Part shown: piece after piece, positions 5,188 to 23,955 of the stretch | Position numbering within the stretch: position 1 is the first letter of the stretch | Layout of the letters: each line of letters starts with the position of its first letter | Source of the DNA: Candidatus Caldarchaeum sp. | Lineage (GTDB): Archaea > Thermoproteota > Nitrososphaeria_A > Caldarchaeales > Caldarchaeaceae | Reading direction: 5' to 3' | Assembly: GCA_033580815.1 (NCBI GenBank) | Contig: JAVQUC010000002.1 | Coordinates: forward strand, 4,259 to 68,258 | Length of the DNA: 64,000 nucleotides | Translations under genes and position numbers: made by a program | The notes under the pieces: generated by a model | Told to the model about the DNA's origin: nothing | What the model saw: the letters and a program-made list of their open reading frames with translations, nothing else | Database searches by the model: none

Positions 5188-6264
5188 ATGGTGAGACGCA
5201 GAGCAGCTGCCAAACCAGCGTACATTGGTTCCCTCCGTGGCAGAGATTTCCTCAACACGAACGACTTCAGTCAGGAGGAAATTAACAACATCCTCAAAGC
5301 CGCAAGAGATTTGCGTGAAAAATTCAAAGCCCGTAAACCAACTGAGTACTTGAGAGGCCAAACGCTTTTCATGATCTTCTACAACCGCTCCCTCAGAACA
5401 CGCAACTCCTTCGAAGCGGGAATCTATCAACTTGGTGGTCACGCCCACTTCCTCAGCCCATCAGACGTCTACACACCAACCCTACCCGAAGATATGATCC
5501 CTTACCAAACGGAATCAATCGCTGATGTGGCCCGTGTTCTCAGCACATACGGTGACGCCATCGCCGTGAGAATCTACGGAGACGCGGCCAAATGGCATAT
5601 CGGAAGAGGCCACAGGGTTATTCAAGAGTTCGCGAAATGGAGTACCATTCCCGTTCTGAACATGGAAGACGACATCTACCATCCCTTCCAAGCGCTCGCA
5701 GACATGATGGCTATAACGGATGTAGCCCCAAAGCCGAGGGGTAAGAAATTCGTCGTCTCCTACGCCTACTCAGGAGGTCTTAAACCGCTTGCAGTCCCCC
5801 AAAGCTGTATTCTAATCGGAACACAGTTTGGGATGGATGTTGTGTTGGCTCATCCACCTGGGTTTGAGCTTGAAGACCACGTCATCCAGGCATGTAAGAA
5901 AAACGTGGAGCAGTACGGCGGCTCGTTCAAAATAACAAACAACATGAAGGAGGCTTTTGAGGGTGCAGACTTTGTTTATCCGAAGGCATGGTCGCCGAAA
6001 AAATTCTTCCCACCTTATAACAATACCGTTGACAAGGAGGGGGCAACTCGATACCAAGACGAGTTCAAGGCATGGATAACGACTCCGGAGCTGATGGACT
6101 TAACCAACAAGGGCAAATACATGCACTGCGGCCCAGCCGACAGAGGACAAGAGGTCGTCGACGAAGTCATCGACAACCCAAACTATTCACTATACTTTCA
6201 ACAAGCCGAAAACCGACTTCACGTCCAGAAGGCCGTGATGTCGATGACGATGGGAAAGAGATGA
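5188..6264 (+). CDS. OTC/ATC-superfamily transcarbamylase of unassigned specificity (358 aa), possibly YgeW/oxamate- or putrescine-carbamoyltransferase-like
   Basis: STRTRNSFE (carbamoyl-phosphate binding), HPFQALAD (HPxQ) and a C-terminal HCGPADRGQEV (HCLP-like) are present. The classical ornithine (DxxxSMG) and aspartate motifs are missing. It is a paralog of 10083..11102. Confidence 0.65.
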   Translation: MVRRRAAAKPAYIGSLRGRDFLNTNDFSQEEINNILKAARDLREKFKARKPTEYLRGQTLFMIFYNRSLRTRNSFEAGIYQLGGHAHFLSPSDVYTPTLPEDMIPYQTESIADVARVLSTYGDAIAVRIYGDAAKWHIGRGHRVIQEFAKWSTIPVLNMEDDIYHPFQALADMMAITDVAPKPRGKKFVVSYAYSGGLKPLAVPQSCILIGTQFGMDVVLAHPPGFELEDHVIQACKKNVEQYGGSFKITNNMKEAFEGADFVYPKAWSPKKFFPPYNNTVDKEGATRYQDEFKAWITTPELMDLTNKGKYMHCGPADRGQEVVDEVIDNPNYSLYFQQAENRLHVQKAVMSMTMGKR

Positions 6265-7289
6265 AAACAGGGGAAGACATCCTCGAGCTAATCGGTAACA
6301 CACCCCTTCTCCGACTCAGGAACATAGAGAAACACGCGGGCATCGAGTCGGAGCTCTGGGCCAAGCTTGAGTTTTACAACCCCTCGGGAAGCCTCAAAGA
6401 CCGGATATACCGCGAAATGATAACGAAGGCCATCGAAAGAGGAGATTTGAGGCCGGGGATGGAAATACTCGAAGTGTCGACTGGAAACGCGGGGATTGCG
6501 TGTTCTTTCGTCGGCTCCCACCTCGGATACAAGGTCACAATCGTCATGCCTGAAGGAATGAGCGAGGAGCGGAAGCAGCTCATCAAGGCGTTCGGCGGCC
6601 AGCTGGTTTTTACTCCCGGGGCAGAAAGCGATGTTGACATTAGCCTTAGGAAAGCGGAGGAGATGATGCAGCGGAACCCGGGGAAGTACTGGTTTCCCAA
6701 CCAATTCACCAACCCGGACAACATCCAAGCACACATCAAGACCACCGGCCCCGAAATATGGGAGCAGACCAAGGGCACCGTGGATTGTTTCGTGATGTCG
6801 CAGGGAAGCGGAGGAACAGTATCAGGAGTTGGTAAATTCCTCAAAGAGAAAAAACCCGGTGTGAAAATATACACGGTCGAACCGGCTGAAGCTCCGATAA
6901 TCAGCGAAGGAAGATGGGGGACTCACAGAATCGAAGGAATCGGAGACGGGTTCATCCCCCGCAACCTCGACCTTTCCGTATGTGACGGAGTGGTGACGAC
7001 GACTTCGGAGGAGGCAATAGAAACAGCGAGAACACTCGCCCGTCTGGAGGGAATATTCGGAGGAATTTCCTCCGGATGCAACGTAGCCGCGGCAGTGAAA
7101 GTTGCTAGGAAATACAAGAAGCTGAGAAAGATAGTAACTCTTATTTGCGACTCAGGCAACAGATACTTGTCCACCGAATTGTACGGTCCGGGTAAGAAAA
7201 CCGAAATCCCAGAGAGGGAACACCCGCTCGACGAGTACACGGTGAGGATGCGGGAAAAACACGCAAGCCGTCTCGAAGTGATAAGGTAA
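6261..7289 (+). CDS. PLP-dependent fold-type II enzyme of the cysteine synthase / cystathionine-beta-synthase family (342 aa)
   Basis: ATG at 6261 overlaps the upstream stop (ATGA). PLP-lysine motif SGSLKDR and glycine loop GSGGT are present. The longer ORF 6072..7289 in the track is an in-frame artefactual extension. Confidence 0.7.
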   Translation: MKTGEDILELIGNTPLLRLRNIEKHAGIESELWAKLEFYNPSGSLKDRIYREMITKAIERGDLRPGMEILEVSTGNAGIACSFVGSHLGYKVTIVMPEGMSEERKQLIKAFGGQLVFTPGAESDVDISLRKAEEMMQRNPGKYWFPNQFTNPDNIQAHIKTTGPEIWEQTKGTVDCFVMSQGSGGTVSGVGKFLKEKKPGVKIYTVEPAEAPIISEGRWGTHRIEGIGDGFIPRNLDLSVCDGVVTTTSEEAIETARTLARLEGIFGGISSGCNVAAAVKVARKYKKLRKIVTLICDSGNRYLSTELYGPGKKTEIPEREHPLDEYTVRMREKHASRLEVIR

Positions 7290-7295
7290 GCAGGA

Positions 7296-7793
7296 ATGGC
7301 GAGCTTCCATTTTGACGAAACCAACGGAGTCGCGTGGGACACCTACTTTGGCGGTCGTGTTTTGGTTCTTTCAGCCAAGCTTATCGGTGAGATGCGGAAG
7401 CTCTTGGCCGGCTCGACATCTGCTGCAGCGGCTGACGCTCTTCTCTGGCACATCGGAAAACGCTATGGTTTAGCGTTGTTGCAGAGAACAGTCGAGATGA
7501 AAAAGAAGCCGTTGGACAGCATAGCCCTACTCGCCGCAAGTGCGCAGAAATCTGGATGGGGCAAAATCTCAGTCGGAAACAAGGTCGATGTAGACCAAAC
7601 ATTCGAAATAGTTTTCGAGAACTGTGCTTTCTGCGAAGGAATCACGGGTGAAAAAAGTCCGTCGTGCTATTTTCTAGCGGGGATCTTGACAGGAATCGCC
7701 GAAGGATTGTTCGGTGAAGGATACAGCGCCAGAGAGACGGAATGCAGGTCTGTCCAAGGAAATGTCTGTCGTTTTTCAGTCGCGAAGTTTTAG
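7296..7793 (+). CDS. V4R (4-vinyl-reductase-like) small-molecule-binding domain protein, 165 aa
   Basis: Conserved Cys pattern CAFCEG … CYFLAGILTGI, typical of V4R/XylR-N-like domains. Confidence 0.5.
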   Translation: MASFHFDETNGVAWDTYFGGRVLVLSAKLIGEMRKLLAGSTSAAAADALLWHIGKRYGLALLQRTVEMKKKPLDSIALLAASAQKSGWGKISVGNKVDVDQTFEIVFENCAFCEGITGEKSPSCYFLAGILTGIAEGLFGEGYSARETECRSVQGNVCRFSVAKF

Positions 7794-7796
7794 CTG

Positions 7797-9056
7797 GTGC
7801 AGGGTTTGTTCGTGGAGAAGATGGTCTGTTCGAGATGCGGTGAATCCTACGACCCCCGTTCTAACCCTATAATGTGTAGAAATAACGACTTCGGCCGGTT
7901 GGATATCTACTATGACTATGACAAGGTCGCTGAATCTTTCAACCGCGCCGAGTTGAGCAAACGTCCTCCGCAGGGTGTATGGCGGTACTGGGAGTTGATG
8001 CCCGTCAACCGCAAGCATTCATCGCCTCTCGCCGAAGGTAACACGCCCCTTCTTAGGGCTTTCCGGCTTGGTCGTGAAATTGGGTTGAAAAACCTGTTCC
8101 TCAAGGACGACACTCGCAACCCGACGGCATCCTTTAAAGACCGGGCGATGTCGGTCGGCGCGGCGAAAGCCCTCGAGACGGGCAAGGTCAACGTGGTCAT
8201 AGCTTCCAGCGGGAACGCTGCATCCTCCTTGGCAGCCTATAGTGCGTCTCTGGGCCTTAACTGTACAGCTTTTGTTCCCGAAGACGTCTCGTTGGGAAAG
8301 GCTTCGCAACTCCTTCTCTACGGCGCCAGAGTTGTCAGGGTCAAGCAGGTTCGGGAGGGGCGCGACCCAACGGTCGAGTTGATGCTCCAGACTGTCCATG
8401 AGATGGGATGGTATCCATGCCCAAGCTTCGGACCCTTCAACCCCTATCAAGTCGAAGGCCCCAAAACAATAGCCTACGAAACAATCGAACAGCTAGAATG
8501 GACAATTCCCGATTTCGTGCTCATCCCCACAGGCTCGGGTTGTTTAGCCGCCGGGATATGGAAGGGCTTCAAAGACTTGAAGACACTGGGTCTGATCGAC
8601 GAATACCCAAAGATCGTCCCGGTCCAGCCTGAAGGAAACATGCCGTTGGTGAGAGCGATAAAGCAGCGCAAAAAATTTGAAGAAATAGAGCCAGAAAAAT
8701 GGCCCCGCTCCATAGCTTCAGGCCTTCTCGACCCCTATCCGTGGGATGGCGACGCAGTCATCGAAGGGGTGAACGCGACGAGAGGAACGGGGGAAACCGT
8801 GACCGAGACCGAAATCAGGGATTCCGTGAAAAAGCTCGCTAACCTTGAGGGTGTCTTCGCCGAACCATCCGGCGCTGTTGGAGTGGCCGCGGCACAGAAG
8901 CTGTTCCATCAAGGTGTAATCGATTCATCGGACGCGGTGGTCATCCTCGTCACCGGCTCGGGACTCAAGGAACCCGAAAAAATGGTCGCTGAGTCCAGCA
9001 TACCGCTGATAACACCGGATATCGAAGAATTCCGCAGACTTTTAGGAAAAAAGTGA
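7797..9056 (+). CDS. Threonine-synthase-like PLP enzyme with an N-terminal Zn ribbon (419 aa)
   Basis: N-terminal C-x2-C … C ribbon (MVCSRCGESY…C), PLP motif SFKDR and a TS-family glycine loop. Confidence 0.7.
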   Translation: MQGLFVEKMVCSRCGESYDPRSNPIMCRNNDFGRLDIYYDYDKVAESFNRAELSKRPPQGVWRYWELMPVNRKHSSPLAEGNTPLLRAFRLGREIGLKNLFLKDDTRNPTASFKDRAMSVGAAKALETGKVNVVIASSGNAASSLAAYSASLGLNCTAFVPEDVSLGKASQLLLYGARVVRVKQVREGRDPTVELMLQTVHEMGWYPCPSFGPFNPYQVEGPKTIAYETIEQLEWTIPDFVLIPTGSGCLAAGIWKGFKDLKTLGLIDEYPKIVPVQPEGNMPLVRAIKQRKKFEEIEPEKWPRSIASGLLDPYPWDGDAVIEGVNATRGTGETVTETEIRDSVKKLANLEGVFAEPSGAVGVAAAQKLFHQGVIDSSDAVVILVTGSGLKEPEKMVAESSIPLITPDIEEFRRLLGKK

Positions 9057-9083
9057 AATTCAAGCTTTATCGTTAACGGTTCT

Positions 9084-10076
9084 TTGAAGTTTTTATTACG
9101 GCGGGACTTGTCATCGCCCATGGATGGCGGAGAGCTTATCGTTGTCGCTTTAGGAGGTAACGCGTTGCTCAGGAGAGGGGACAAGGGCTCGTTCGAAGAA
9201 CAATATAGGAATGTTTCGGAGGCGGCACGCTACCTAGCCGACATCGTCGAAGCAGGCCACAAACTCGTCATCACACATGGCAACGGACCCCAAGTGGGAG
9301 CCACGCTTCTGAGACACGACGCCGGCCAGAAAATCCATGGGATACCGGCCTTCCCGATGGATGCATGCGGCGCCGAAACACAGGGATTAATCGGCTACAT
9401 CATACAGCAAAACCTACGCAACGAGCTCAAACGAAGGGGGATCGACAAATACGTAATCACGGTTGTGACGAGAGTCATCGTCGACAAAGACGACCCTGCC
9501 TTCAAAAACCCAACGAAGCCAATAGGCCCCTTTTACAAAAAAGAGGACCTGGACAAGCTAAAGGCCGAACATCCTGAATACGTCTTCGCCGAAGACAAGG
9601 CTCGCGGCGGATGGAGGCGAGTGGTTCCATCGCCCGACCCAAAAATCATAGCCGAAAGACACGCGATCAAAGCGTTGGTCGACGCGGGTTTCATCGTCGT
9701 CGCAAGCGGTGGGGGCGGCATCCCGATAATCGAGGAGAACGGAAGAGCATCCGGTGTTGAAGCGGTCGTAGACAAAGACCTAGCTGGAGAGAAGCTCGCC
9801 GAGCTGATCAAAGCCGACAGGTTCGTCATCCTGACTGACGTCGACGGAGCATACCTTAACTATGGAAAACCAGACCAGAAAAAGCTGGAAAAAGTGACGG
9901 CCGCTGAAGCGAGAAAATATCTCGAAGAGGGACATTTTGGCTCCGGCTCGATGTTGCCGAAGGTGCTCGCATGCATAAGGTTTGTGGAGTCTGGTGGAAA
10001 AGAGGCGATCATCGCAGAGCTATCGCAGTTCAAGGAGGCTTTCGCGGGAAAAGCCGGCACTCATTTCATTCGGTGA
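9084..10076 (+). CDS. arcC: Carbamate kinase. The true start is probably Met13 at 9120.
   Basis: [10 protein letters not shown] and THGNGPQVG motifs are diagnostic of carbamate kinase in the amino-acid kinase family. Length is about 315 aa. Confidence 0.85.
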
Positions 10077-10082
10077 AATTCT

Positions 10083-11102
10083 TCAGACTTTGCCGGCGAC
10101 GAGTGCGAGTATCGCGGCTCTCACATAGAGAAGGTTTTCGGCCTGGTCGTAAATGACGCTCCGAGGCCCGTCCATCACATCATCGTCAGCCTCCTGACCC
10201 CTGAAAACCGGTAAAACATGCGTGACGACACCGTGTTTGGACATCAAGTCCGTCAGTTCACGGGTAAGCTTCCAGTCCTTGTATTTGTTATGAAGCTCGA
10301 CTTCGCGTTCGCGGCCGAACCTGTTCATTCCGGTTAGGACGCATTCGTGGCTTGCCCAGCTCCGTGGGAAAACTGCGTCCGCGCCCTCTAAAGCTTCCCT
10401 GTAGTCGTGGGAGATTGATAGGCTGCCGCCGCTTTCTTCGGCGTTCTTCTTGGCAATCTTGACGATGTTCTCGTCGATGTCGAAGCCCGGCGGATAAGCG
10501 AGTACGACATCCATTCCGAACCTTGTCGCAATCAACATCTCATCCTGTATGCTGCCCCAGCTTCTGATCCTATCGCTGTAAGCCCACATCAACACATATT
10601 TTTTCTTCTCCACTTTGCCAAGCTTTTCCTTTAACGTGTAAAGGTCTGTTATTGCTTGGCTGGGATGGAACATGTCGTCGGCCATGTTGATGACGGGAAT
10701 TTTCGCATGTTCGGCGTATTCACGGACAACGGCGTTTCCTCTACCGTACACATAGTCGACGGCTGATTCGAGGATGCGGACGCCCAGAACGTGGCCGAGC
10801 CTTTCATACATCTTGGCTATGTCTTTGACCGCTTCTCCTTCAGCGCCGCGTGTCGTGGCAAAGTCGATGAACTGGGCGTGGCCTCCCAGCATCGTCGCCG
10901 CTGCTTCAAAGCTGGCCCTCGTCCTAGTGCTGGTGTTGTAGAAGAGCATGAACATGGTCCTGTTTTTGAAGAGCTCGGGAACGTTCCCGGCCGCCCTCCC
11001 GATTTTCAGGCTGCGCGCAAGCTCCATCGTCGCCGTGATCTCCTCGATTGTCCAATCTTGTGATGAGATGAGGTCCCTTCCGAAAAGCTCTGTCAGGGTC
11101 AT
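10083..11102 (-). CDS. Second OTC/ATC-superfamily transcarbamylase paralog (339 aa), of unassigned specificity
   Basis: STRTRASFE and HPSQ motifs. It shares the unusual WAYS…FGMDVVLAYPPGF segment with 5188..6264 and has a C-terminal HVLPVFRGQE. It lies convergent to carbamate kinase. Confidence 0.65.
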   Translation of the reverse strand: MTLTELFGRDLISSQDWTIEEITATMELARSLKIGRAAGNVPELFKNRTMFMLFYNTSTRTRASFEAAATMLGGHAQFIDFATTRGAEGEAVKDIAKMYERLGHVLGVRILESAVDYVYGRGNAVVREYAEHAKIPVINMADDMFHPSQAITDLYTLKEKLGKVEKKKYVLMWAYSDRIRSWGSIQDEMLIATRFGMDVVLAYPPGFDIDENIVKIAKKNAEESGGSLSISHDYREALEGADAVFPRSWASHECVLTGMNRFGREREVELHNKYKDWKLTRELTDLMSKHGVVTHVLPVFRGQEADDDVMDGPRSVIYDQAENLLYVRAAILALVAGKV

Positions 11103-11126
11103 GCCGCCAACTTTCGATCCGTAAAT

Positions 11127-16109: not shown

Positions 16110-17111
16110 CTAAACCTCCGCGATGCTCTTGATTAGGTATTCTGGGTCTCCGCTCAAAGGTAGCAGGAGCGGCGAAGTGCATCCATGAGCCATGTATTCC
16201 TTGACCTTTGACACCACGTCTGAAACGGTTCCGGAGGCGCTTATCATTCTGACTATGTCGTCGGGAACGATTTCTGTCGCCTTCTCTATTCCGCCCGGTT
16301 TCGCAGGCCAGCCACCCATGATGCGTTGTACTTCATGAATCAAGTCTTCGCTCACTCCGCTTGCTTTCATGATGTGCGGCTGCTGGCCCAAAGTCATGGT
16401 CACGTGTTTTTTGGCGAGTTTCACAGCCTTATCGGCATCAGGATGCACCGAGCAAGCTATTAATTGCGGCCTGTCTATGTCCTCGAGCCTCCGCCCTGCT
16501 CTTGCTGCACCGATCTTTATGTGTTCCAGCGCTGTGTCGTTGTATTTGGGGGAGACGAGGTAGTTGAGGAGTACTCCGTCGCCGATTTCTCCAGCTAGCT
16601 CCATCATCTTCCATCCGGTAGCACCGATGTAAATGGGGATGTTTCGGGGTTTCTCTCCAGCGCCGTGTAGAACGTCCAAACGAACACCTCGCATTTTCAC
16701 AAACTTTCCTTCAAACGTCACCTCCTCCATGCGGAAAAGCCTGCGAATTACTTCGACGTATTCCCGCATGCATTTAAGAGGCTCGGTCCTCTCTATCCCA
16801 ACCTTCCAAGCAAGCGGGTCCCACCAAGCACCAAGTCCGAGAATAACACGTCCATCGCTCAATTCATCCATCGTCGCGAAAGTCTGAGCGATGAGGGCGG
16901 CGTTACGGGTCCAAGTGTTTATCACACCAGCTCCAACCTTGATTTTGGAAGTGACTGTTGCGATTGCGGTCATGGGAGTCAACGCATCTCTTGCCAGACG
17001 TGATTCGGCTACCCATGCCGATTCGAAATCGTAACGCTCGGCGAGCTGAGCATAACGTACCATCTCACGGACATGCATGTCTTGAAGATATAGACCCCAG
17101 CGAACATCCAT
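16110..17111 (-). CDS. Luciferase-like (LLM) flavin/F420-dependent oxidoreductase, 333 aa
   Basis: TIM-barrel LLM family features (…GLGAWWDP…). First gene of the minus-strand operon. Confidence 0.6.
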   Translation of the reverse strand: MDVRWGLYLQDMHVREMVRYAQLAERYDFESAWVAESRLARDALTPMTAIATVTSKIKVGAGVINTWTRNAALIAQTFATMDELSDGRVILGLGAWWDPLAWKVGIERTEPLKCMREYVEVIRRLFRMEEVTFEGKFVKMRGVRLDVLHGAGEKPRNIPIYIGATGWKMMELAGEIGDGVLLNYLVSPKYNDTALEHIKIGAARAGRRLEDIDRPQLIACSVHPDADKAVKLAKKHVTMTLGQQPHIMKASGVSEDLIHEVQRIMGGWPAKPGGIEKATEIVPDDIVRMISASGTVSDVVSKVKEYMAHGCTSPLLLPLSGDPEYLIKSIAEV

Positions 17112-17199
17112 GCCTATTAGACTTCACAATCGAAGGATGTTTTTATCTGTTTGTGTAAAAAATGTAAGGATATATGGGGCGCCATTTCATTCTGAGTAA

Positions 17200-19004: not shown

Positions 19005-19020
19005 TTCAAAGACGATATTC

Positions 19021-20322
19021 ATGTTGATGCAGGAAAAAACCCGAGTTTCGAGGAGGAAGTTTCTCGCGGTATCTTCTGGTGTCGCCGCCGGCTCGGTCGC
19101 TGCAGGAGTCGTTGTCGGAGGTTTGGCGGGATACTTTCTCGGTACGACTCAAGCTCCGCCAGCCCAAACCGTAACAGCAACAGTGGCCGCTCCGCCGAAG
19201 CGCCTCAAAGTAGGTTACGTCTATGTCGGACCCGTCGGAGACTACGGCTGGACCTTCGCCCACGACCAGGGAAGGAAATGGGCTGACGCAAGATACAAGA
19301 ACGTCGACAGCATCTACATCGAAAGTGTTCCCGAAGCGCAAGCGCTGGGCGCTATTGAATCGCTGATTAACCAAGGAGCAGAGCTGGTGATCACCACGAG
19401 TTTCGGCTACATGGACGCCACAGCTGAAGCAGCCGCCAAACATCCAGACAAATACTTCGTCCACATATCAGGTTACAGGAGCGGAGCAGCGGGAAATGCT
19501 CCGCAGAACATGAGCAGCGCCTTCGCCGAGTTCTACCAGCTCTACTACCTCAACGGATTGGCCGCCGGAGCGGTGACGCAGACCGGAATCGTAGGATACG
19601 TGGCTGCTTTTCCGATCCCCGAGGTCGTGAGACACATCAATGCCTTCGTCCTCGGCGCAAACTACGCTTACAAAAAACGAACAGGCAAAAACATCCGAGC
19701 TTTCGTCAACTGGCTTTTCGCTTGGTTTGACCCCGGAAAGGCCCGTGAAGCAGCGGTTGCTCTGATAGAACAGTCGAACGCAGATGTTTTGGCCTTCACC
19801 GAAGACACTCCCACCACTCTCCAGGTGGCTGAAGAATTTACCACGCAACGGAACAGAAAGACATGGAGCTTCAGCCATTACAACGACATGTCCAGCTACG
19901 GAAAAACAGCCCATCTGACTGGTCAGATAGTTAACTGGGGTCCAATCTACCTCGATTTCTACCGAATGGTGGGCACAGGCACTTGGCATTCGGTTGACAT
20001 ATGGACGAGGATCGGGGACTACATGCCCTACCGATGGAGGAAGCCCCCCGAACAGAGCACCGCTGGACAGGTCGACGGAACCCTCCAACTAGCCCCGATA
20101 AACCCTGCGGTGCCTAGCGAATGGCAATATGAAATAAAGAGAAGATATGAGGAGATGAAGGAGCTGCTTTTCGAGCCATTCAGCGTCGAAGGAAACCTCG
20201 GAGAACCCATCAAAGACCAGCGGGGCGAAGTCAGGATCAAAGGGACGGAGCGCGCTGACTGGAAGATGCTTTGGGAGATGGACTGGTTCGTCGAACAAGT
20301 CGAAAGCGAGTTGCCGCGTTAA
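19021..20322 (+). CDS. BMP/PnrA-family ABC substrate-binding protein (nucleoside-binding) with a Tat/lipoprotein-type signal, 433 aa
   Basis: N-terminal SRRKFLAVSSGVAAGS plus BMP-family blocks. Followed by a CUT2-type ABC ATPase and two permeases. Confidence 0.7.
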   Translation: MLMQEKTRVSRRKFLAVSSGVAAGSVAAGVVVGGLAGYFLGTTQAPPAQTVTATVAAPPKRLKVGYVYVGPVGDYGWTFAHDQGRKWADARYKNVDSIYIESVPEAQALGAIESLINQGAELVITTSFGYMDATAEAAAKHPDKYFVHISGYRSGAAGNAPQNMSSAFAEFYQLYYLNGLAAGAVTQTGIVGYVAAFPIPEVVRHINAFVLGANYAYKKRTGKNIRAFVNWLFAWFDPGKAREAAVALIEQSNADVLAFTEDTPTTLQVAEEFTTQRNRKTWSFSHYNDMSSYGKTAHLTGQIVNWGPIYLDFYRMVGTGTWHSVDIWTRIGDYMPYRWRKPPEQSTAGQVDGTLQLAPINPAVPSEWQYEIKRRYEEMKELLFEPFSVEGNLGEPIKDQRGEVRIKGTERADWKMLWEMDWFVEQVESELPR

Positions 20323-20362
20323 ACTTCCTTTAAAACCCATAAATTTTTTCCGCATAATTCAA

Positions 20363-21907
20363 TTGGGATGGAAAATGGACGAACATGTAAATCTAGTCGA
20401 GATGAAAGGGATAGTTAAGCGTTTCCCAAACGTTATCGCTAACAACAACGCAAACTTCACGCTTCGAAGGGGTGAGGTCCACGCCCTTCTCGGAGAAAAC
20501 GGGGCGGGAAAATCGACTTTGATGAATGTCTTGTACGGCATCTACAAGCCCGACGCGGGCGAAATCTACGTTGAAGGGAAAAAGGTGGAAATCAAAGGCC
20601 CTAGGGACGCTTTGAAGCTGGGGATAGGAATGGTTCATCAACAGTTCAAGCTCATCCCAGTTCACACCGTGGCCGAGAACGTGATACTAGGGTTGAAGGA
20701 GATGGGTTTCTTTCTCGACAGCCGGAAAATCAACCGCGAACTCGGCCGGGTAATTGCGAGCTATGGATGGAAGATTTCTCCGGAAGCAAAGGTTTGGCAG
20801 TTGTCGGCCGGTGAAAAACAGCAGGTCGAGCTTTTGAAGGCATTGTTCAGAAACGTCAAGATATTGATTCTCGACGAACCGACCTCAGTTCTTACTCCTC
20901 AGGAAACGGTCGTATTTTTTCAAACCCTCCGGAAAATGGCTTCCCAAGGTCTCGGAATAGTTTTGATCACCCACAAACTTGAGGAAGTTTTCTCTGTGGG
21001 TGACAGAGTCACGGTGATGCGTGGGGGAGAGACTGTCGCGACCAAAGACGTCAAGGACACAAACATCGAGGAATTGGTTGAGTTGATGATCGGGCGGCCG
21101 TTGCTGAAAATTGCTCCCGCGCGTAAACTGGTCAAGGACAATCCGGTGTTGCAGGTTTTGAACTTGGTGGTGCTGAACGACAAGGGCCTCGAAGCTGTGC
21201 GAAGGGTTTCCTTCAAGCTTTTCAGGGGCGAGATAATGGGCATAGCAGGTGTTTCGGGAAACGGTCAGCAAGAACTTCTTGAAGCAATTGCGGGCCTCCG
21301 AAAAACCGTGTCTGGGAAGATACTGCTTGACGGAGTCGAAATCACCAACAAGCATCCAGCGGATATCATTTCAGCCGGCGTAAGCTACATCCCCGCCGAG
21401 GCACTAAGATATTGCGCACCAGAAATGACTGTCGCGGAAAACCTCGTCCTCAAAGCCTACCGAAACCCGGATTTCTCGAACAAGCTCCTGATAAACTGGA
21501 AGACCGTCGAAAGAAAATCGTCGGAGCTGGTGAATTACTTCCGAATTGTCACGCCATCGATTAAAAACAGGGTGGGAAATCTATCGGGAGGAAACGTGCA
21601 GAGGCTCGTGCTCGCCCGAGAACTCGGCACCCACCCGAACCTCCGCGTAATCCTCGCGGCCTACCCCACGCGTGGCCTTGACATTGCATCGACGGAGGCA
21701 ATTCATCAAGAATTGATAAGAAGATCTGAGCAGGGTGTTGCGATTCTGCTTGTGTCGGAAGAACTCGAGGAATTGGTTGCGCTGTGCGACCGAATAACGG
21801 TCATGTACAGGGGGGAGTTGGTCGGTGTGGTTGAAAGAGGCCTCTATGACGTAGAGGAAATCGGGCTGATGATGACGGGCGTGAAGAAGATGGAGGTGAG
21901 TGCCTGA
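20363..21907 (+). CDS. ABC transporter ATP-binding protein with duplicated ATPase domains (514 aa)
   Basis: Two Walker A motifs (GENGAGKST; GVSGNGQQE), LSGGxxQ signatures and Walker B ILDEPT. Confidence 0.85.
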   Translation: MGWKMDEHVNLVEMKGIVKRFPNVIANNNANFTLRRGEVHALLGENGAGKSTLMNVLYGIYKPDAGEIYVEGKKVEIKGPRDALKLGIGMVHQQFKLIPVHTVAENVILGLKEMGFFLDSRKINRELGRVIASYGWKISPEAKVWQLSAGEKQQVELLKALFRNVKILILDEPTSVLTPQETVVFFQTLRKMASQGLGIVLITHKLEEVFSVGDRVTVMRGGETVATKDVKDTNIEELVELMIGRPLLKIAPARKLVKDNPVLQVLNLVVLNDKGLEAVRRVSFKLFRGEIMGIAGVSGNGQQELLEAIAGLRKTVSGKILLDGVEITNKHPADIISAGVSYIPAEALRYCAPEMTVAENLVLKAYRNPDFSNKLLINWKTVERKSSELVNYFRIVTPSIKNRVGNLSGGNVQRLVLARELGTHPNLRVILAAYPTRGLDIASTEAIHQELIRRSEQGVAILLVSEELEELVALCDRITVMYRGELVGVVERGLYDVEEIGLMMTGVKKMEVSA

Positions 21908-21910
21908 CGA

Positions 21911-22978
21911 ATGTCTATATCGTTTAAGCTGGAAAGAAGGGGTGAAGTATCCCGGAAATTCTCCGCCATCGTCAGTGCTTTCTTTCTGCTGGCGGGCTTG
22001 CTGTTCGCGAGCTTGATATTCGAACTTCTCGGAGTTAGCGCCGTCGAGACTTTCTCCCGTGTCGTCAGTGTCTTCACGAGTCAGTCATCTTTGATGCAAG
22101 CGATTCTCCGCGGTCTGCCCATAGGGTTTGCAGCGCTAGGGCTCTGCCTTGCTTTCAAAATGAACTTTTGGAACATCGGAGCAGAAGGCCAGATGTACAT
22201 GGGAATGACCGCTGCAACGGGCGTCGTCCTTCTACACGCATACTACGGATACCTCCCAGACTTTCTCGTTTTCCCGGTAATGGTAGCGGCAGCATTCGCG
22301 GCCGGTGGCCTGTACTGCACTTTGCCAGCGTTCTTGAAGGCGAGGTTTGGAGTTAACGAGATTCTACCCACCCTCATGCTCAATTACATCGCGATGCATT
22401 TCGTCAACTTCCTCATCACAGGGCCGTGGAGAGACCCACAAGGGTTTGGGTTCCCGCTCTCCATAGTCTTCCCGCCCTACGCGCGAATGGAGACTTTTCT
22501 AGGCCACGCAAACTACGTCGGCCTGCCGTCGGCTTTCATCGCAGCCGCTCTAATCTTCGGGCTTCTTCAGAAAACGCCCGCTGGGTTCGAAATGCGTGTT
22601 CTCGGACAGAATTTTGAGGCGGCGCGTTATGCAGGTGTTAGAATCGGCCGCACTCTTCTGACGGGCAGCATGATAGCTGGCGGATTAGCGGGAATAGGAG
22701 GCCTCGTGATCGTGAGTGCTCTGCTCGGAAGGCTGAGGCCCGGCGCTCCGGCTGGCTACGGATACACGGCTATAATCATAGCATTCCTAGCATCCTTGAA
22801 CCCATGGCTTGCTGTTCCCGCCGCCATATTTTTCGGAGCCCTTCTGGTCGCCGGCGACGTCATCCAAGCAACCCTAAACCTACCCTTCGCGGCCGTCCAG
22901 ATTTTTCAGTCAACGATATTCTTGATGATAATTCTCGGAGAGTTCTTCAAACGCTATAGGATTAGGGTGATCAGATGA
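21911..22978 (+). CDS. ABC transporter permease (355 aa)
   Basis: Multi-TM protein in the operon. Typical nucleoside/sugar permease arrangement. Confidence 0.7.
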   Translation: MSISFKLERRGEVSRKFSAIVSAFFLLAGLLFASLIFELLGVSAVETFSRVVSVFTSQSSLMQAILRGLPIGFAALGLCLAFKMNFWNIGAEGQMYMGMTAATGVVLLHAYYGYLPDFLVFPVMVAAAFAAGGLYCTLPAFLKARFGVNEILPTLMLNYIAMHFVNFLITGPWRDPQGFGFPLSIVFPPYARMETFLGHANYVGLPSAFIAAALIFGLLQKTPAGFEMRVLGQNFEAARYAGVRIGRTLLTGSMIAGGLAGIGGLVIVSALLGRLRPGAPAGYGYTAIIIAFLASLNPWLAVPAAIFFGALLVAGDVIQATLNLPFAAVQIFQSTIFLMIILGEFFKRYRIRVIR

Positions 22979-23955
22979 TCGACATCGGGTTTGTTGAATC
23001 AGTTCTGGCCGGGGCAGTCGCTGCCGGAACGGTTTTTCTCCTCGCCTCCCTCGGTGAAACCTACGCGGAAAGGGCGGGAGTCCTCAACCTCGGAATGGAG
23101 GGAATGATGATCATGGGAGCGGCGGTTTCATACATTTTCACCAACGCCATGGGGCACGGAGCTGCTTTGCTGATGGTTCTGATAATGGGCGTGTTGATGG
23201 GCCTTCTTCACGCCTTTTTCACCGTCAGCCTCAAGCTAAACCAAGTCGTCGTGGGGTTGGCGGTGACTATTCTCGGTCTCGGGTTGAGCGGGTTGTTGGC
23301 CTCGGCGGAAATACGGGCTCGAATCATACTAGCTTTGAACCCAGAGGCGACGAGGGCTGTTATCGCTTCGCAGGAGGCGCCAAAGTTGCCTCTGATACCG
23401 GTCGCGGGCCTCAAGGACATCCCGATAATCGGTCCGATGTTCTTCAACCACAACGCCCTCGTCTATTTCTCCCTCGTCCTCAGCCTTTTGATGTGGTTCG
23501 TTCTGTTCAAAACGAGGTTTGGTCTGAGCATCCGTTCCTGCGGTGAAAACCCTTCCATGGCAGACACGCTGGGAATAAACGTGTACTTCATGAGGTATGT
23601 TTCAATGGTTGTCTGCGGCATGCTGGGTTGCCTGGCGGGTGCTTACCTCTTCATCGGGTACCAGCCCTTCTGGGTGGAAGGGATGACTCAGGGCCGGGGC
23701 TTCATATCGCTTGCGCTCGTCATCCTAGCGACGTGGAACCCGTTAAGGGCCGTGCTCGGAGCCTATCTCTTTGGAGGCGTGGAAGCACTGCAGTTTCGGC
23801 TACAGGTGCTCGGAGTCGCAGCTCAGCTTCCGTATTTTCTGCTAATGCTCCCCTACGCCGTGACCATCATAACGTTGACGTTGCTATCTCTCGAATCCGT
23901 GAGAAAAAGGGTAGGAGTTCCAGCGGCTTTGGGCATTCCCTACTCCCGTGAATAA
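22975..23955 (+). CDS. ABC transporter permease (326 aa)
   Basis: Multi-TM protein. Its start overlaps the stop of the previous permease. Confidence 0.7.
   Translation: MIDIGFVESVLAGAVAAGTVFLLASLGETYAERAGVLNLGMEGMMIMGAAVSYIFTNAMGHGAALLMVLIMGVLMGLLHAFFTVSLKLNQVVVGLAVTILGLGLSGLLASAEIRARIILALNPEATRAVIASQEAPKLPLIPVAGLKDIPIIGPMFFNHNALVYFSLVLSLLMWFVLFKTRFGLSIRSCGENPSMADTLGINVYFMRYVSMVVCGMLGCLAGAYLFIGYQPFWVEGMTQGRGFISLALVILATWNPLRAVLGAYLFGGVEALQFRLQVLGVAAQLPYFLLMLPYAVTIITLTLLSLESVRKRVGVPAALGIPYSRE

What the first reader, a model, noticed from the sequence alone, without database searches (positions are those of the whole stretch)
5188..23955. Archaeal purine-catabolism locus coupled to carbamoyl-phosphate/carbamate-kinase ATP generation
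Seen in sequence: a contiguous ~18.8 kb block encodes the following.
- Two atypical transcarbamylases, a CysK-like and a TS-like PLP enzyme, a V4R ligand-binding protein and carbamate kinase on the plus strand.
- A minus-strand operon with an LLM/F420 oxidoreductase, an SsnA-like amidohydrolase, three-subunit XDH-type molybdoenzyme and a transcarbamylase.
- Adenine deaminase with a BMP-type nucleoside ABC transporter.

Established knowledge, from memory: E. coli ygeW-ygeX-ygeY-hyuA-yqeA, xdhABC, ssnA and the purinolytic clostridia combine a YgeW-type (oxamate) transcarbamylase, a fold-type-II PLP lyase, carbamate kinase and a Mo-hydroxylase. They ferment xanthine/urate and make ATP from carbamoyl phosphate.

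Inference: this archaeon encodes an analogous anaerobic purine-to-ATP pathway. It differs in having an F420/LLM enzyme, Zn-ribbon threonine-synthase-like enzymes and no hydantoinase or M20 peptidase.
Basis: partly seen in the sequence, partly recalled or inferred. Interest (0 to 1): 0.85.

Follow-up and report, generated by a model that had tools for sequence, protein, structure and literature searches.

The report
Archaeal F420-type purine breakdown gene cluster
A hot-spring archaeon (Candidatus Caldarchaeum) carries a conserved 19-kb gene cluster that most likely imports and breaks down purines by an archaeal version of the "2,8-dioxopurine" pathway found in gut bacteria in 2025, swapping several enzymes for unrelated ones and probably making ATP from carbamoyl phosphate.

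Summary
The gene content is real. There are 16 tightly packed genes at 5188-23955 in a Candidatus Caldarchaeum MAG, and the order is kept in at least 8 other Caldarchaeum/HR01 genomes. E. coli YgeW is not an oxamate enzyme. In the reductive urate (2,8-dioxopurine) pathway published in 2025 it phosphorolyses 2,3-diureidopropionate.

The window looks like an archaeal variant of that pathway:
- An XDH-family Mo enzyme.
- A Mer-like F420-type LLM fused in operon to an SsnA-like amidohydrolase, in place of YgfK/UacX. In Hadarchaeota and Desulfurococcales a PydA-like reductase sits next to the same amidohydrolase instead.
- Two carbamoyltransferases from two archaeal clades that are neither OTC, AOTC nor YgeW, plus one carbamate kinase.
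- A threonine-synthase paralogue lacking the phosphate-binding residues, plus a CysK-type enzyme, where bacteria have YgeX.
- Adenine deaminase and a BMP-type ABC importer.

The "missing" hydantoinase lies elsewhere in what appears to be the same MAG. In C. subterraneum it sits beside a second XDH-type enzyme. No paper in the searched library describes this in archaea; Li et al. 2025 only predicted an F420 variant in Chloroflexota. Step assignments are inferred, not shown. Verdict: new variant of a known kind, interest about 0.6.

The parts
5188..6264 (+). Carbamoyltransferase TC1, an archaeal clade on the YgeW/AOTC-like side of the family. Predicted phosphorolysis of a ureido group to give carbamoyl phosphate.
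   Evidence: Pfam OTCace_N + OTCace. Best NCBIfam model is AOTCase at 283 bits, below its cutoff of 288; YgeW scores 148, cutoff 453. SLRTR and HPFQ motifs are present; YPKAWSP replaces DxxxSMG. The AOTCase determinants E92, W77 and K302 are T, T and E here. The family is 73-86% identical across Nitrososphaerota, Bathyarchaeia, Hadarchaeota and Nezhaarchaeales. It forms its own clade in the NJ tree.
6261..7289 (+). CysK-type fold-type-II PLP enzyme whose start overlaps the TC1 stop. Role in the pathway is unassigned; candidates are beta-elimination or beta-replacement on 2,3-diaminopropionate or a ureido-alanine.
   Evidence: PALP domain. TIGR01139 cysK 363 bits, cutoff 351. PDB Geobacillus cysteine synthase 285 bits; the Asn loop reads STGNAG where the aligned enzyme has TSGNTG. 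It recurs next to TC1, ThrC-like or SsnA-like genes in L016, L030, L040 and L059.
7296..7793 (+). Stand-alone V4R domain protein with no DNA-binding domain. Possibly a small-molecule sensor or carrier.
   Evidence: Pfam V4R, residues 104-162. Only the C-terminal V4R part of MsvR matches. It is found only in Caldarchaeum loci and is 35-64% identical there.
7797..9056 (+). Threonine-synthase-like PLP enzyme, a paralogue. Predicted functional replacement of the diaminopropionate ammonia-lyase YgeX.
   Evidence: PALP domain. PRK08197 306.5 bits, cutoff 303. A second ThrC at about 59550-60773 scores higher on TIGR00260 (271 against 189 bits). The motifs ASSGNAA, FGPFNPYQVEGPKT and PTGSGCL are invariant or nearly so in 19 orthologues, where solved threonine synthases have ASTGNT, NSVNPxRxEGQKT and PVGNAGN. 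The gene is linked to the SsnA-like gene and/or TC1 in Calditenuis, Nitrososphaerales, Hecatella, Desulfurococcales and Hadarchaeaceae.
9084..10076 (+). Carbamate kinase (carbamoyl phosphate + ADP -> ATP + carbamate). The start is the TTG at 9084 or the ATG at 9120.
   Evidence: TIGR00746 arcC 432 bits, cutoff 358. A CK gene accompanies TC2 or the TC1/TC2 pair in Nitrososphaerales, Bathyarchaeia, Hecatella and Desulfurococcales loci.
10083..11102 (-). Carbamoyltransferase TC2, a second archaeal clade and the last gene of the minus-strand operon.
   Evidence: OTCace_N + OTCace. All NCBIfam models are below cutoff; the best is AOTC at 227 bits, cutoff 288. STRTR and HPSQ are present; FPRSWAS replaces DxxxSMG. 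It is 40% identical to TC1 and forms a separate clade. It is 71-74% identical in Nitrososphaerales, where it follows the XDH genes.
11127..13478 (-). Mo-pterin subunit of an XDH-family hydroxylase. It is either a xanthine dehydrogenase or a 2,8-dioxopurine dehydrogenase; this is undecided.
   Evidence: Ald_Xan_dh_C + MoCoBD_1 + MoCoBD_2. XdhA model 474 bits, cutoff 780. Bovine XDH 313 bits. Bovine equivalents: Q767=Q228, R880=R342, R912=R374, F914=F376, E1261=E741; E802 is S263 and F1009 is L471. It lacks the XdhD insertion that carries E606.
13454..13909 (-). 2Fe-2S subunit of the XDH-family enzyme. The ORF runs to 13978; the likely start is the codon at 13909-13907, which overlaps the FAD-subunit stop.
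   Evidence: Fer2 + Fer2_2. Translation. The NCBIfam alignment begins at residue 23-25 of the long ORF.
13906..14742 (-). FAD subunit of the XDH-family enzyme.
   Evidence: FAD_binding_5 + CO_deh_flav_C. Translation.
14739..16106 (-). SsnA-like amidohydrolase, a sister clade of true SsnA. Predicted hydrolytic opening of the reduced purine ring.
   Evidence: Amidohydro_1. The best NCBIfam model is SsnA NF005540 at 362 bits (cutoff 444); the next family scores 281. The HxH, HxxE, H and D metal and catalytic residues are invariant in 12 orthologues. It is 31% identical to E. coli SsnA. A true SsnA (555 bits) coexists with this type in Hadarchaeota.
16110..17111 (-). Luciferase-like (LLM) oxidoreductase of the F420 class. 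Predicted F420H2-dependent dearomatising reductase replacing YgfK/UacX.
   Evidence: Bac_luciferase. The 16 best NCBIfam hits are all F420-class (Mer 203 bits); the best FMN-class model scores 52. PDB Mer 170 bits, Fgd 67, SsuD 54. It lies 3 nt upstream of the SsnA-like gene here and directly upstream in 28 distinct Nitrososphaeria loci. A PydA-like reductase takes the neighbouring position in other archaea.
17112..17199 (.). Divergent intergenic region between the LLM operon and the adenine deaminase/transporter operon, with two conserved TATA-like boxes.
   Evidence: An alignment of 10 Caldarchaeum loci keeps TT(A/T)TTAT..TTTG and (A/T)TATAT while the rest of the region varies.
17200..18987 (+). 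Adenine deaminase (adenine -> hypoxanthine + NH3).
   Evidence: Adenine_deam_C + Amidohydro_1. TIGR01178 567 bits, cutoff 472.
19021..20322 (+). Bmp/PnrA-type substrate-binding protein of an ABC importer (purine base or nucleoside class).
   Evidence: Pfam Bmp. It is syntenic in Caldarchaeales loci at 70-87% identity.
20363..21907 (+). Tandem ABC ATPase of the importer.
   Evidence: Two ABC_tran domains. Sugar/B6-type ATPase models score below cutoff.
21911..22978 (+). Permease 1 of the importer.
   Evidence: BPD_transp_2.
22975..23955 (+). Permease 2 of the importer.
   Evidence: BPD_transp_2.

Best explanation
The block is a catabolic purine-utilisation locus of a Candidatus Caldarchaeum archaeon. 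It is an archaeal variant of the reductive 2,8-dioxopurine (yanthine) pathway described in E. coli and Clostridium in 2025.

Proposed flow (every step is inferred; none is shown):
1. The BMP-type ABC system imports a purine base or nucleoside.
2. Adenine deaminase makes hypoxanthine.
3. The XDH-family Mo enzyme adjusts the oxidation pattern of the ring to 2,8-dioxopurine. A second XDH-type enzyme encoded elsewhere in the genus may share this task.
4. The Mer-like LLM uses F420H2 to reduce and dearomatise the ring.
5. The co-translated SsnA-like amidohydrolase opens the ring.
6. An unlinked D-hydantoinase/dihydropyrimidinase opens the second ring, giving 2,3-diureidopropionate.
7. TC1 and TC2 phosphorolyse ureido groups to carbamoyl phosphate.
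8. The single carbamate kinase converts the carbamoyl phosphate to ATP, potentially two ATP per purine where E. coli gets one.
9. The threonine-synthase paralogue, possibly with the CysK-type enzyme, deaminates 2,3-diaminopropionate to pyruvate and ammonia in place of YgeX.

From hypoxanthine the overall conversion to pyruvate + 2 CO2 + 4 NH3 is redox-neutral.
For: Composition: Pfam and NCBIfam identify every part.

Reference pathway: Li et al. 2025 (PMC12507026) and Liu et al. 2025 (bioRxiv 10.1101/2025.04.24.650524) give XdhD/DOPDH, YgfK/UacX, SsnA, HyuA, YgeW + YqeA, YgeY and YgeX.

Operon structure: gaps or overlaps of -4 to 27 nt within each operon.

Synteny:
- The full order is kept in Caldarchaeum/HR01 loci.
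- Nitrososphaerales loci combine a 3-subunit XDH, TC2, LLM, SsnA-like, a HyuA-like gene (40% identical to E. coli HyuA), another deaminase-type amidohydrolase, CK and a ThrC-like gene.
- Desulfurococcales L059 combines HyuA-like, Ade-like, TC2, TC1, CK, SsnA-like, PydA-like, CysK-like, ThrC-like and M20 genes.

Reductase swap: LLM lies directly upstream of the SsnA-like gene in 28 distinct Nitrososphaeria loci. A PydA/DHODH-like reductase lies directly downstream in 13 Hadarchaeota-type loci and L059, and about 1.4 kb downstream in L046. This mirrors the bacterial YgfK/UacX/LLM swap noted by Li et al..

LLM is F420-class by HMM and PDB ranking. TACK archaea carry F420 biosynthesis genes (PMC8498797).

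TC1 and TC2 lack the OTC, ATC and AOTC substrate determinants and share YgeW-type motifs. TC1, TC2 and CK form a recurring trio.

The ThrC-like protein lacks the residues that solved threonine synthases keep, and a more canonical ThrC exists in the same window.

Hydantoinase: dihydropyrimidinase MDW8083797.1 has an accession 33 numbers from the window's SsnA-like MDW8083830.1, which suggests the same MAG. In C. subterraneum the orthologue abuts a second XDH-type operon.

Purine context elsewhere: a MocA-like gene and a NUDIX-e2b2 fusion sit next to the SsnA-like gene in Bathyarchaeia; MoeA and MobB sit next to LLM-SsnA in L088.
Against: - No biochemical, transcript or growth data exist for any of these archaeal proteins.
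- The SsnA-like protein scores below the SsnA equivalog cutoff. It coexists with a true YgfK-SsnA pair in Hadarchaeota, so its substrate could differ from that of SsnA.
- The Mo subunit is equidistant (about 30% identity) from E. coli XdhA and XdhD and lacks the XdhD E606 loop. Formation of 2,8-dioxopurine is therefore unproven.
- F420 use is inferred from family ranking only.
- The CysK-type protein passes the cysteine synthase cutoff and may simply make cysteine.
- L059 has two TCases and an M20 peptidase together, so 'TC1 replaces YgeY' is not a clean one-to-one swap.
- Carbamate kinases can work anabolically in some archaea (Thermococcales; from memory).
Confidence: 0.7

Rival explanations
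1. The reductase-amidohydrolase-TCase machinery degrades a different N-heterocycle, not 2,8-dioxopurine. Candidates are another oxopurine isomer, a pyrimidine, or a pterin- or nicotinate-type ring. The XDH-family enzyme would hydroxylate that other substrate.
For: The SsnA-like protein is a sister clade scoring below the SsnA cutoff. In Hadarchaeota it sits beside a complete YgfK-SsnA pair, which suggests a non-redundant substrate. The adjoining PydA-like and dihydropyrimidinase-like genes are also the enzyme types of reductive pyrimidine degradation. The Mo subunit has Ser and Leu at the bovine E802 and F1009 positions.
Against: Adenine deaminase above its equivalog cutoff sits in the divergent operon here, and an adenine deaminase is also linked in Pelearchaeum and, as an Ade-like gene, in Calditenuis and L059. 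The Arg880, Arg912, Phe914 and Glu1261 equivalents typical of purine-hydroxylating XDHs are kept. Two TCases plus one CK fit a product with two ureido groups, which only a 2,8-dioxo purine skeleton gives (inference).
Confidence: 0.14
2. The plus-strand operon is anabolic or housekeeping and only happens to lie next to a purine-oxidising operon. On this reading the carbamate kinase acts as a carbamoyl-phosphate synthetase, the TCases build ureido compounds, CysK makes cysteine and the TS-like enzyme makes threonine.
For: CysK and ThrC HMM cutoffs are formally met. TC1 is unusually conserved (73-86%) across phyla, as a housekeeping enzyme would be. CK-type CPSases are known in Thermococcales (from memory).
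Against: Both TCases lack the ornithine and aspartate binding motifs. A more canonical ThrC is present elsewhere in the window, and the cluster copy lacks the residues that all four solved threonine synthases keep at the phosphate site. TC1, the CysK-like gene and the ThrC-like gene recur next to SsnA-like, HyuA-like or XDH genes in several unrelated archaeal orders.
Confidence: 0.08
3. The LLM is an FMN- and O2-dependent monooxygenase (RutA-like) that opens the ring oxidatively in an aerobic archaeon. It would not be an F420H2-dependent reductase.
For: RutA of the Rut pyrimidine pathway is an LLM-family enzyme (from memory). Caldarchaeum is described as aerobic or facultative in the literature. 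A flavin reductase gene lies at 41910-42392 in the window.
Against: F420-class models score 84-203 bits against at most 52 for FMN-class models. Mer and Fgd are the closest solved structures. A PydA-type reductase, not an oxygenase, occupies the equivalent position in Hadarchaeota and Desulfurococcales loci. The flavin reductase gene is 25 kb away and unlinked.
Confidence: 0.04
4. A plain arginine deiminase or citrulline-type pathway: catabolic OTC plus carbamate kinase.
For: The architecture is an OTC-family protein next to a carbamate kinase. Databases annotate the family as 'ornithine carbamoyltransferase'.
Against: No arginine deiminase was found among the annotated genes of the window. 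There is no DxxxSMG loop, and Lys or Arg replaces the Asp that binds the ornithine alpha-amino group. All OTC models score below cutoff.
Confidence: 0.02

Closest known systems
Reductive urate / 2,8-dioxopurine pathway of E. coli (xdhD-ygfM, ygfK, ssnA, hyuA, ygeW, yqeA, ygeY, ygeX) and Clostridium sporogenes/difficile (Li et al. 2025, PMC12507026; Liu et al. 2025, bioRxiv 10.1101/2025.04.24.650524)
   Same: The logic and the enzyme classes match: an XDH-family Mo enzyme, a reductase tightly coupled to an SsnA-type amidohydrolase, a carbamoyltransferase feeding a carbamate kinase, a fold-type-II PLP enzyme at the end, and purine uptake genes alongside.
   Different: - The reductase is a Mer-like LLM, not YgfK or UacX.
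- The amidohydrolase belongs to a sister clade below the SsnA model cutoff.
- There are two carbamoyltransferases, from clades distinct from YgeW (31% identity).
- There is no M20 YgeY.
- YgeX is absent, and a threonine-synthase paralogue plus a CysK-type enzyme are present instead.
- The hydantoinase is unlinked.
- The XDH has three separate subunits and lacks the XdhD E606 loop.
- Adenine deaminase and an ABC importer replace the permeases and guanine deaminase of E. coli.
- The host is an archaeon.
Chloroflexota SsnA neighbourhoods with a PF00296 'putative F420-dependent' luciferase-family enzyme (bioinformatic note in Li et al. 2025)
   Same: The same idea: an LLM/F420 enzyme replaces YgfK/UacX next to SsnA.
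   Different: That note covers bacteria only and members of IPR017700. The window's protein scores 336 bits on TIGR03314 (cutoff 455.5), so it probably lies outside that family set. Nothing was tested in either case. I could not determine whether the Chloroflexota and archaeal LLMs are orthologous.
Arginine deiminase pathway (ArcA, catabolic OTC ArcB, carbamate kinase ArcC)
   Same: ATP is made by phosphorolysis of a ureido compound followed by carbamate kinase.
   Different: There is no ArcA. The carbamoyltransferases lack the ornithine-binding loop.
N-acetylornithine carbamoyltransferase (Xanthomonas AOTCase) and E. coli YgeW, the 'knotted' carbamoyltransferases
   Same: TC1's best PDB and NCBIfam match is AOTCase. 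TC1 and TC2 share the YxKSW-type loop, the 120s insertion and, for TC1, the KPLxVPQ loop of YgeW.
   Different: The AOTCase determinants E92, W77 and K302 are T, T and E in TC1. All family cutoffs are missed. TC1 and TC2 form two separate clades. The knot itself was not examined.

Membership tests
Reductive 2,8-dioxopurine (uricolytic) gene cluster | XdhD/DOPDH-type Mo enzyme that 6-dehydroxylates urate | tested here: inconclusive
   An XDH-family three-subunit enzyme is present. It is about 30% identical to both E. coli XdhA and XdhD, and it lacks the XdhD insertion carrying E606.
Reductive 2,8-dioxopurine (uricolytic) gene cluster | YgfK or UacX (PydA-like) dearomatising reductase next to SsnA | tested here: not met
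   The window has no YgfK hit, and none of its annotated genes is PydA-like. An LLM occupies the position. PydA-like or YgfK genes are present in other archaeal loci.
Reductive 2,8-dioxopurine (uricolytic) gene cluster | SsnA amidohydrolase (NF005540 / TIGR03314) | tested here: inconclusive
   SsnA is the best-scoring family, but below cutoff: 362 bits (cutoff 444) and 336 bits (cutoff 455.5). A true SsnA in Hadarchaeota scores 555.
Reductive 2,8-dioxopurine (uricolytic) gene cluster | HyuA-type cyclic amidohydrolase | tested here: inconclusive
   Absent from the locus and from the 64-kb window. A D-hydantoinase equivalog, MDW8083797.1, has an accession adjacent to the window's proteins and so is apparently in the same MAG (the orthologues P0241 and P0268 score 476 and 458 against a cutoff of 393). 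It is adjacent to the SsnA-like gene in sister lineages.
Reductive 2,8-dioxopurine (uricolytic) gene cluster | Carbamoyltransferase plus carbamate kinase giving ATP | tested here: met
   There are two carbamoyltransferases and one arcC-type carbamate kinase above cutoff. Activity was not tested.
Reductive 2,8-dioxopurine (uricolytic) gene cluster | YgeY (M20) and YgeX (diaminopropionate ammonia-lyase) | tested here: not met
   The E. coli proteins give no tblastn hit in the window. Other fold-type-II PLP enzymes are present instead.
YgeW knotted carbamoyltransferase (TIGR03316 / NF005538) | Score above the equivalog cutoff | tested here: not met
   TC1 scores 147-148 and TC2 152-158 against cutoffs of 453-500. 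Identity to YgeW is 31%.
N-acetylornithine carbamoyltransferase | Model cutoff, and the substrate determinants Glu92 and carboxylated Lys302 | tested here: not met
   TC1 scores 283 (cutoff 288) and TC2 227. E92 is T, K302 is E and W77 is T in TC1. The roles of these residues are recalled from the Shi et al. structures.
Ornithine carbamoyltransferase (anabolic or catabolic) | DxxxSMG ornithine-binding loop and family cutoffs | tested here: not met
   YPKAWSP and FPRSWAS occupy that position. All OTC models score below cutoff.
Threonine synthase | HMM cutoff, and the conserved phosphate-binding residues (T88, N154, S155, R160, N188 in T. thermophilus numbering) | tested here: inconclusive
   The HMM cutoffs are just met (306.5 against 303; 189 against 167). 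All five positions are replaced (A, G, P, Q, S), and the replacements are invariant across the 19 cluster orthologues compared (N188 position: S in 18, A in 1). The residue roles are from memory of Omi et al. 2003.
Cysteine synthase A (CysK) | TIGR01139 cutoff and the PLP and Asn-loop residues | tested here: met
   363 bits, cutoff 351. It scores 285 bits against a solved cysteine synthase. The Asn loop reads STGNAG rather than TSGNTG, and GISSG is kept. This shows family membership; the physiological substrate is unknown.
F420-dependent LLM oxidoreductases | Closest to the F420 class rather than to FMN-class LLMs | tested here: met
   Mer 203 bits and further F420 subfamilies 84-159 bits, against at most 52 for FMN-class models. 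No single equivalog cutoff is reached. PDB ranking agrees. Cofactor binding was not tested.
Aerobic CO dehydrogenase (CoxL) | Best similarity to CoxL | tested here: not met
   CODH models score 229-271 bits against 474 for XdhA. PDB CODH scores 170-207 against 313 for bovine XDH.

The most novel reading that the evidence does not exclude
Nitrososphaeria run a previously undescribed, F420-dependent and redox-balanced purine fermentation. This covers hot-spring Caldarchaeales and abundant soil Nitrososphaerales. With a PydA-type reductase, the same would apply to Hadarchaeota and Desulfurococcales.

In this reading both ureido groups of 2,3-diureidopropionate are released as carbamoyl phosphate by two new carbamoyltransferase families, giving two ATP per purine. 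A new threonine-synthase-derived lyase finishes the pathway. Archaea would then be significant, overlooked mineralisers of nucleic-acid nitrogen.
Probability: 0.3. Interest if true: 0.78.

Novelty: new variant of a known kind. Interest (0 to 1): 0.6.

Why it matters
Purine catabolism in archaea is essentially uncharted, and the reductive 2,8-dioxopurine pathway has so far been described only in bacteria (2025).

The locus gives concrete candidates that can be cloned:
- an F420H2-dependent purine-ring reductase;
- two carbamoyltransferase clades with unknown ureido substrates;
- a threonine-synthase-derived lyase.

Pieces of the module occur in Caldarchaeales, soil Nitrososphaerales, Bathyarchaeia, Hadarchaeota, Desulfurococcales and some Asgard MAGs. 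It could therefore explain how uncultured archaea gain ATP, carbon and ammonia from extracellular nucleic acids.

It also shows why SsnA-family-based surveys would be expected to miss archaea: the archaeal clade scores below the family cutoff.

Tried and rejected
- An exact look-up of the window's SsnA-like protein on contigs returned nothing. The homology search then found it.
- I tried to decide XDH versus DOPDH from the XdhD E606 loop, active-site residues and pairwise identities among five archaeal and E. coli Mo subunits. All are 27-42% identical to each other and no orthology is visible.
- An Rfam scan of the whole window found only two tRNAs and no purine-type riboswitch.
- The repeat search in the locus gave only chance matches or matches caused by shared coding motifs.
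- I did not use the sigma-70 promoter/terminator scan because the host is an archaeon. I aligned the intergenic regions instead.
- The M20 peptidase next to TC2-CK-TC1 in Bathyarchaeia turned out to be a PepT equivalog. It is probably unrelated, so I do not count it as YgeY.
- The 317-aa gene after TC2 in Nitrososphaerales has only faint metallophosphoesterase similarity and is absent from the window.
- Literature searches for an archaeal version (Aigarchaeota/Caldiarchaeum with xanthine dehydrogenase, carbamate kinase, SsnA; dioxopurine with F420) found nothing beyond Li et al..
- Structure prediction and fold search were not run. Sequence-level matches to solved structures were already unambiguous for fold, and would not settle substrate.

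Full report
**What is there**

The stretch 5188-23955 holds 16 closely spaced genes in three transcription units. Pfam and NCBIfam identify them as follows.

Plus strand:
- TC1, a carbamoyltransferase (5188-6264).
- A CysK-type PLP enzyme. Its real start is the ATG at 6261, which overlaps the TC1 stop.
- A V4R-domain protein (7296-7793).
- A threonine-synthase-like PLP enzyme with an N-terminal Cys4 ribbon (7797-9056).
- Carbamate kinase (9084-10076; TIGR00746 432 bits, cutoff 358).

Minus strand, convergent with the above:
- An LLM oxidoreductase (17111-16110).
- An SsnA-like amidohydrolase (16106-14739).
- The FAD, 2Fe-2S and Mo subunits of an XDH-family enzyme (14742-11127).
- TC2, a second carbamoyltransferase (11102-10083).

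Plus strand, divergent from the LLM gene:
- Adenine deaminase (17200-18987; TIGR01178 567 bits, cutoff 472).
- A Bmp-type ABC importer (19021-23955).

There are two carbamoyltransferases in all, one per strand. tblastn with the E. coli K-12 proteins finds no HyuA, YgeY, YgeX or YgfK homologue anywhere in the 64 kb.

**Host**

The SsnA-like protein is 100% identical to MDW8083830.1 of a Candidatus Caldarchaeum sp. MAG. The rest of the window encodes A-type ATPase, archaeal RNA polymerase, GGGP synthase, GINS, primase, MCM and Hel308. The archaeal assignment is therefore sound.

**The right reference pathway**

Two 2025 papers have since worked this cluster out.
- XdhD-YgfM (DOPDH in Clostridium) reduces urate to 2,8-dioxopurine.
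- YgfK, or the PydA-like UacX, reduces the ring.
- SsnA opens it, giving ureidomethylhydantoin or 5-ureidodihydrouracil.
- HyuA gives 2,3-diureidopropionate.
- YgeW phosphorolyses one ureido group, and YqeA makes ATP from the carbamoyl phosphate.
- YgeY removes the other ureido group.
- YgeX converts 2,3-diaminopropionate to pyruvate and ammonia.

These steps come from PMC12507026 and bioRxiv 10.1101/2025.04.24.650524. The papers disagree on which ureido group YgeW removes. Li et al. also note that Chloroflexota SsnA neighbourhoods carry a luciferase-family, putatively F420-dependent enzyme instead of YgfK/UacX. Neither paper mentions archaea.

**Conservation**

I scanned one genome per species with an alignment of SsnA-like proteins. 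It returned 80 loci, and 79 of them are archaeal. A tblastn matrix with the window's proteins and the E. coli proteins shows the following.
- Caldarchaeum/HR01: the whole gene order is kept in L006-L008, L011, L012, L030 and L043, and partly in L004, L009 and L010.
- Nitrososphaeria: the LLM lies directly upstream of the SsnA-like gene in 28 distinct loci at 73-93% identity.
- Nitrososphaerales: loci combine a three-subunit XDH, TC2 (about 72% identity), LLM, SsnA-like, a HyuA-like hydantoinase (40% identical to E. coli HyuA), a further deaminase-type amidohydrolase, carbamate kinase and a ThrC-like gene. L016 also has the CysK-like gene and TC1.
- Calditenuis and another thaumarchaeal locus: TC1, LLM, SsnA-like, ThrC-like, HyuA-like and an adenine-deaminase-family gene are linked. 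L088 adds MoeA and MobB.
- Desulfurococcales L059: HyuA-like, Ade-like, a deaminase, TC2, TC1, CK, SsnA-like, PydA-like, CysK-like, ThrC-like and an M20 peptidase.
- Bathyarchaeia: TC2-like, CK and TC1 are kept together. The SsnA-like gene sits next to a MocA-like nucleotidyltransferase, a cyclic amidohydrolase, a NUDIX-e2b2 fusion and an M20 peptidase.

**The reductase swap**

In 13 Hadarchaeota-type loci and in L059, the same SsnA-like gene is immediately followed by a PydA/DHODH-like reductase. In L046 the PydA-like gene lies about 1.4 kb downstream. This is the enzyme class of UacX. So the window-type amidohydrolase pairs either with an LLM or with a PydA-like reductase, parallel to the YgfK/UacX/LLM alternatives in bacteria. 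This is my strongest argument that the LLM is the dearomatising reductase.

The LLM's 16 best NCBIfam matches are all F420-class (Mer 203 bits). The best FMN-class model scores 52 bits. The closest solved structures are Mer (170 bits) and Fgd, while SsuD scores 54. TACK archaea are reported to carry F420 biosynthesis genes (PMC8498797). F420 use remains an inference.

One caution applies. Some Hadarchaeota loci also carry, about 1 kb away, a bacterial-type YgfK (40% identical over its full length) next to a true SsnA (555 bits, cutoff 444). The window-type protein scores 362-404 bits. The window's amidohydrolase is thus a sister clade of SsnA and may take a related but different substrate. Its TIGR03314 score (336 bits, cutoff 455.5) probably also explains why the SsnA-family survey in Li et al. 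would not have included it.

**The Mo enzyme**

XdhA-type models score best (474 bits, against 229-271 for CO dehydrogenase). Bovine XDH is the best solved match (313 bits, against 170-207 for CODH). Mapped on bovine XDH, most key residues are kept and two are not:
- Kept: Gln767, Arg880, Arg912, Phe914 and the catalytic Glu1261.
- Changed: Glu802 is Ser and Phe1009 is Leu.

The subunit is about 30% identical to both E. coli XdhA and XdhD, and it lacks the XdhD insertion that carries E606. I cannot say whether it is a xanthine dehydrogenase or a 2,8-dioxopurine dehydrogenase. It is not a CO dehydrogenase.

**The carbamoyltransferases**

Both proteins have the carbamoyl-phosphate motifs: S(L/T)RTR and HPxQ. 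Both lack the OTC DxxxSMG loop and the ATC RxQxER motif. In their place they have YPKAWSP (TC1) and FPRSWAS (TC2), resembling YgeW (YPKSWAP) and AOTCase (YAKSWG). TC1 also shares YgeW's AYS...KPLxVPQ loop.

Every NCBIfam model scores below its cutoff. TC1 comes close to the AOTCase model (283 bits, cutoff 288). However, the AOTCase determinants Glu92, Trp77 and Lys302 are Thr, Thr and Glu in TC1 (the residue roles are from memory of the Shi et al. structures).

A crude NJ tree places TC1 and TC2 as two separate archaeal clades on the YgeW/AOTC side of the family, away from ArgI. TC1 homologues are 73-86% identical across several archaeal phyla and are annotated as OTC or AOTC. No arginine deiminase was found among the genes I annotated. 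The ADI reading is rejected.

**The PLP enzymes**

The window contains a second ThrC at about 59550-60773. It also has a Zn-ribbon, and it scores higher on the thrC model (271 against 189 bits).

The cluster copy has replaced the five positions that all four solved bacterial threonine synthases keep: ASTGNT, NSVNPxRxEGQKT and PVGNAGN become ASSGNAA, FGPFNPYQVEGPKT and PTGSGCL. These motifs are invariant or nearly so in 19 orthologues from five lineages. In T. thermophilus threonine synthase these positions (T88, N154, S155, R160, N188) bind the substrate phosphate, as I recall from Omi et al. 2003. A phospho-substrate is therefore unlikely. This is the best candidate for the YgeX-like step.

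The CysK-type protein is a close relative of real cysteine synthases (285 bits to a solved enzyme, cysK cutoff met). It recurs with TC1 and the ThrC-like gene in distant lineages. Its role is open.

**The missing hydantoinase**

Caldarchaeum species encode D-hydantoinase/dihydropyrimidinase equivalogs elsewhere in the genome. One of them, MDW8083797.1, has an accession only 33 numbers from the window's MDW8083830.1 and lies on a 188-kb contig. I take this to mean the same MAG. In Ca. C. subterraneum the orthologue sits beside a second three-subunit XDH-type operon. The Mo subunit of that operon shares the window enzyme's active-site signature. The genus therefore has two Mo hydroxylases plus a hydantoinase, as the bacterial scheme requires (XDH, DOPDH and HyuA), but unlinked.

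**Model and stoichiometry**

With adenine deaminase and an importer in the divergent operon, the likely feedstock is adenine or hypoxanthine. By my own arithmetic, hypoxanthine + 6 H2O -> pyruvate + 2 CO2 + 4 NH3 is redox-neutral. The electrons released by ring hydroxylation could therefore pay for the 6-dehydroxylation and the F420H2-dependent ring reduction.

Two carbamoyltransferases feeding one carbamate kinase suggest up to two ATP per purine. That L059 has two TCases together with an M20 peptidase warns against a simple one-for-one mapping.

**Other checks**
- Rfam finds no riboswitch.
- Repeats in the locus are chance or coding-motif matches.
- The 88-bp divergent intergenic region has two TATA-like boxes conserved in ten Caldarchaeum loci.
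- The PEPC-S7 flank is conserved, and atpAB lies near the cluster in three Nitrososphaeria lineages.

**Verdict**

It is a new variant of a known kind. The host is archaeal, the reductase is F420-type, there are two new carbamoyltransferase clades, and a threonine-synthase-derived enzyme stands in place of YgeX. All functional assignments rest on homology and gene context, and none has been tested.

I found no description of this variant in the searchable literature.

Noticed in passing
L061 8294-17119 (also L058, L064, L071, L082, L083): Hadarchaeota carry two reductase-amidohydrolase modules side by side. One is a bacterial-type YgfK (40% identical to E. coli YgfK) with a true SsnA (555 bits). 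The other is the window-type SsnA-like gene with a PydA/DHODH-like reductase and a cyclic amidohydrolase. This hints at two related ring substrates.
   Followed up: partly
L091 4470-9443 (Ca. Caldarchaeum subterraneum): A second three-subunit XDH-type operon lies directly beside the D-hydantoinase homologue, followed by Memo and the mevalonate-pathway genes MVK, IPK and IDI2. Its Mo subunit is 42% identical to the window's and has the same active-site signature.
   Followed up: partly
window 23958-25529: An archaeal-type PEP carboxylase starts 2 nt after the last permease gene and may be co-transcribed with the importer. The PEPC-S7 flank is conserved in six Caldarchaeum loci.
   Followed up: partly
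window 59550-60773: A second threonine synthase, also with an N-terminal Cys4 ribbon, scores higher on the thrC model than the cluster copy does. It is presumably the housekeeping enzyme.
   Followed up: yes
window 3358-5150: A MenA-type DHNA prenyltransferase carries an N-terminal extension of about 150 aa with no Pfam match. A small ORF with weak PNPOx-like similarity precedes it. Split-barrel proteins of this kind include F420H2-dependent quinone reductases (from memory).
   Followed up: no
window 19-2156; L001 11476-14709; L003 17177-20373: The A-type ATPase A and B subunit genes lie within a few kb of the purine cluster in Caldarchaeum, Pelearchaeum and Nitrososphaerales. This suggests an old, vertically inherited chromosomal position.
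   Followed up: partly
window 17112-17199: Two short conserved AT-rich boxes, TT(A/T)TTAT..TTTG and (A/T)TATAT, lie in the divergent LLM/adenine-deaminase intergenic region across ten Caldarchaeum loci. They are likely the two archaeal TATA boxes.
   Followed up: partly
L035 7310-16636 (Bathyarchaeia): The SsnA-like gene is flanked by a MobA/MocA-like nucleotidyltransferase, a cyclic amidohydrolase, a NUDIX-IF-2B (e2b2-type) fusion, an MFS transporter and an M20 peptidase. No reductase or XDH lies nearby.
   Followed up: no
L002/L003 5322-6282: A conserved gene of about 317 aa with no clear family (faint metallophosphoesterase similarity) follows TC2 in six Nitrososphaerales loci (seven locus entries; L003 and L021 are the same contig). 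It is absent from the window.
   Followed up: no
window 41910-45234: A flavin reductase, an AsnC-family regulator, a ROK-family kinase and a GlcD-like FAD-linked oxidase form a minus-strand group. It is not linked to the finding.
   Followed up: no
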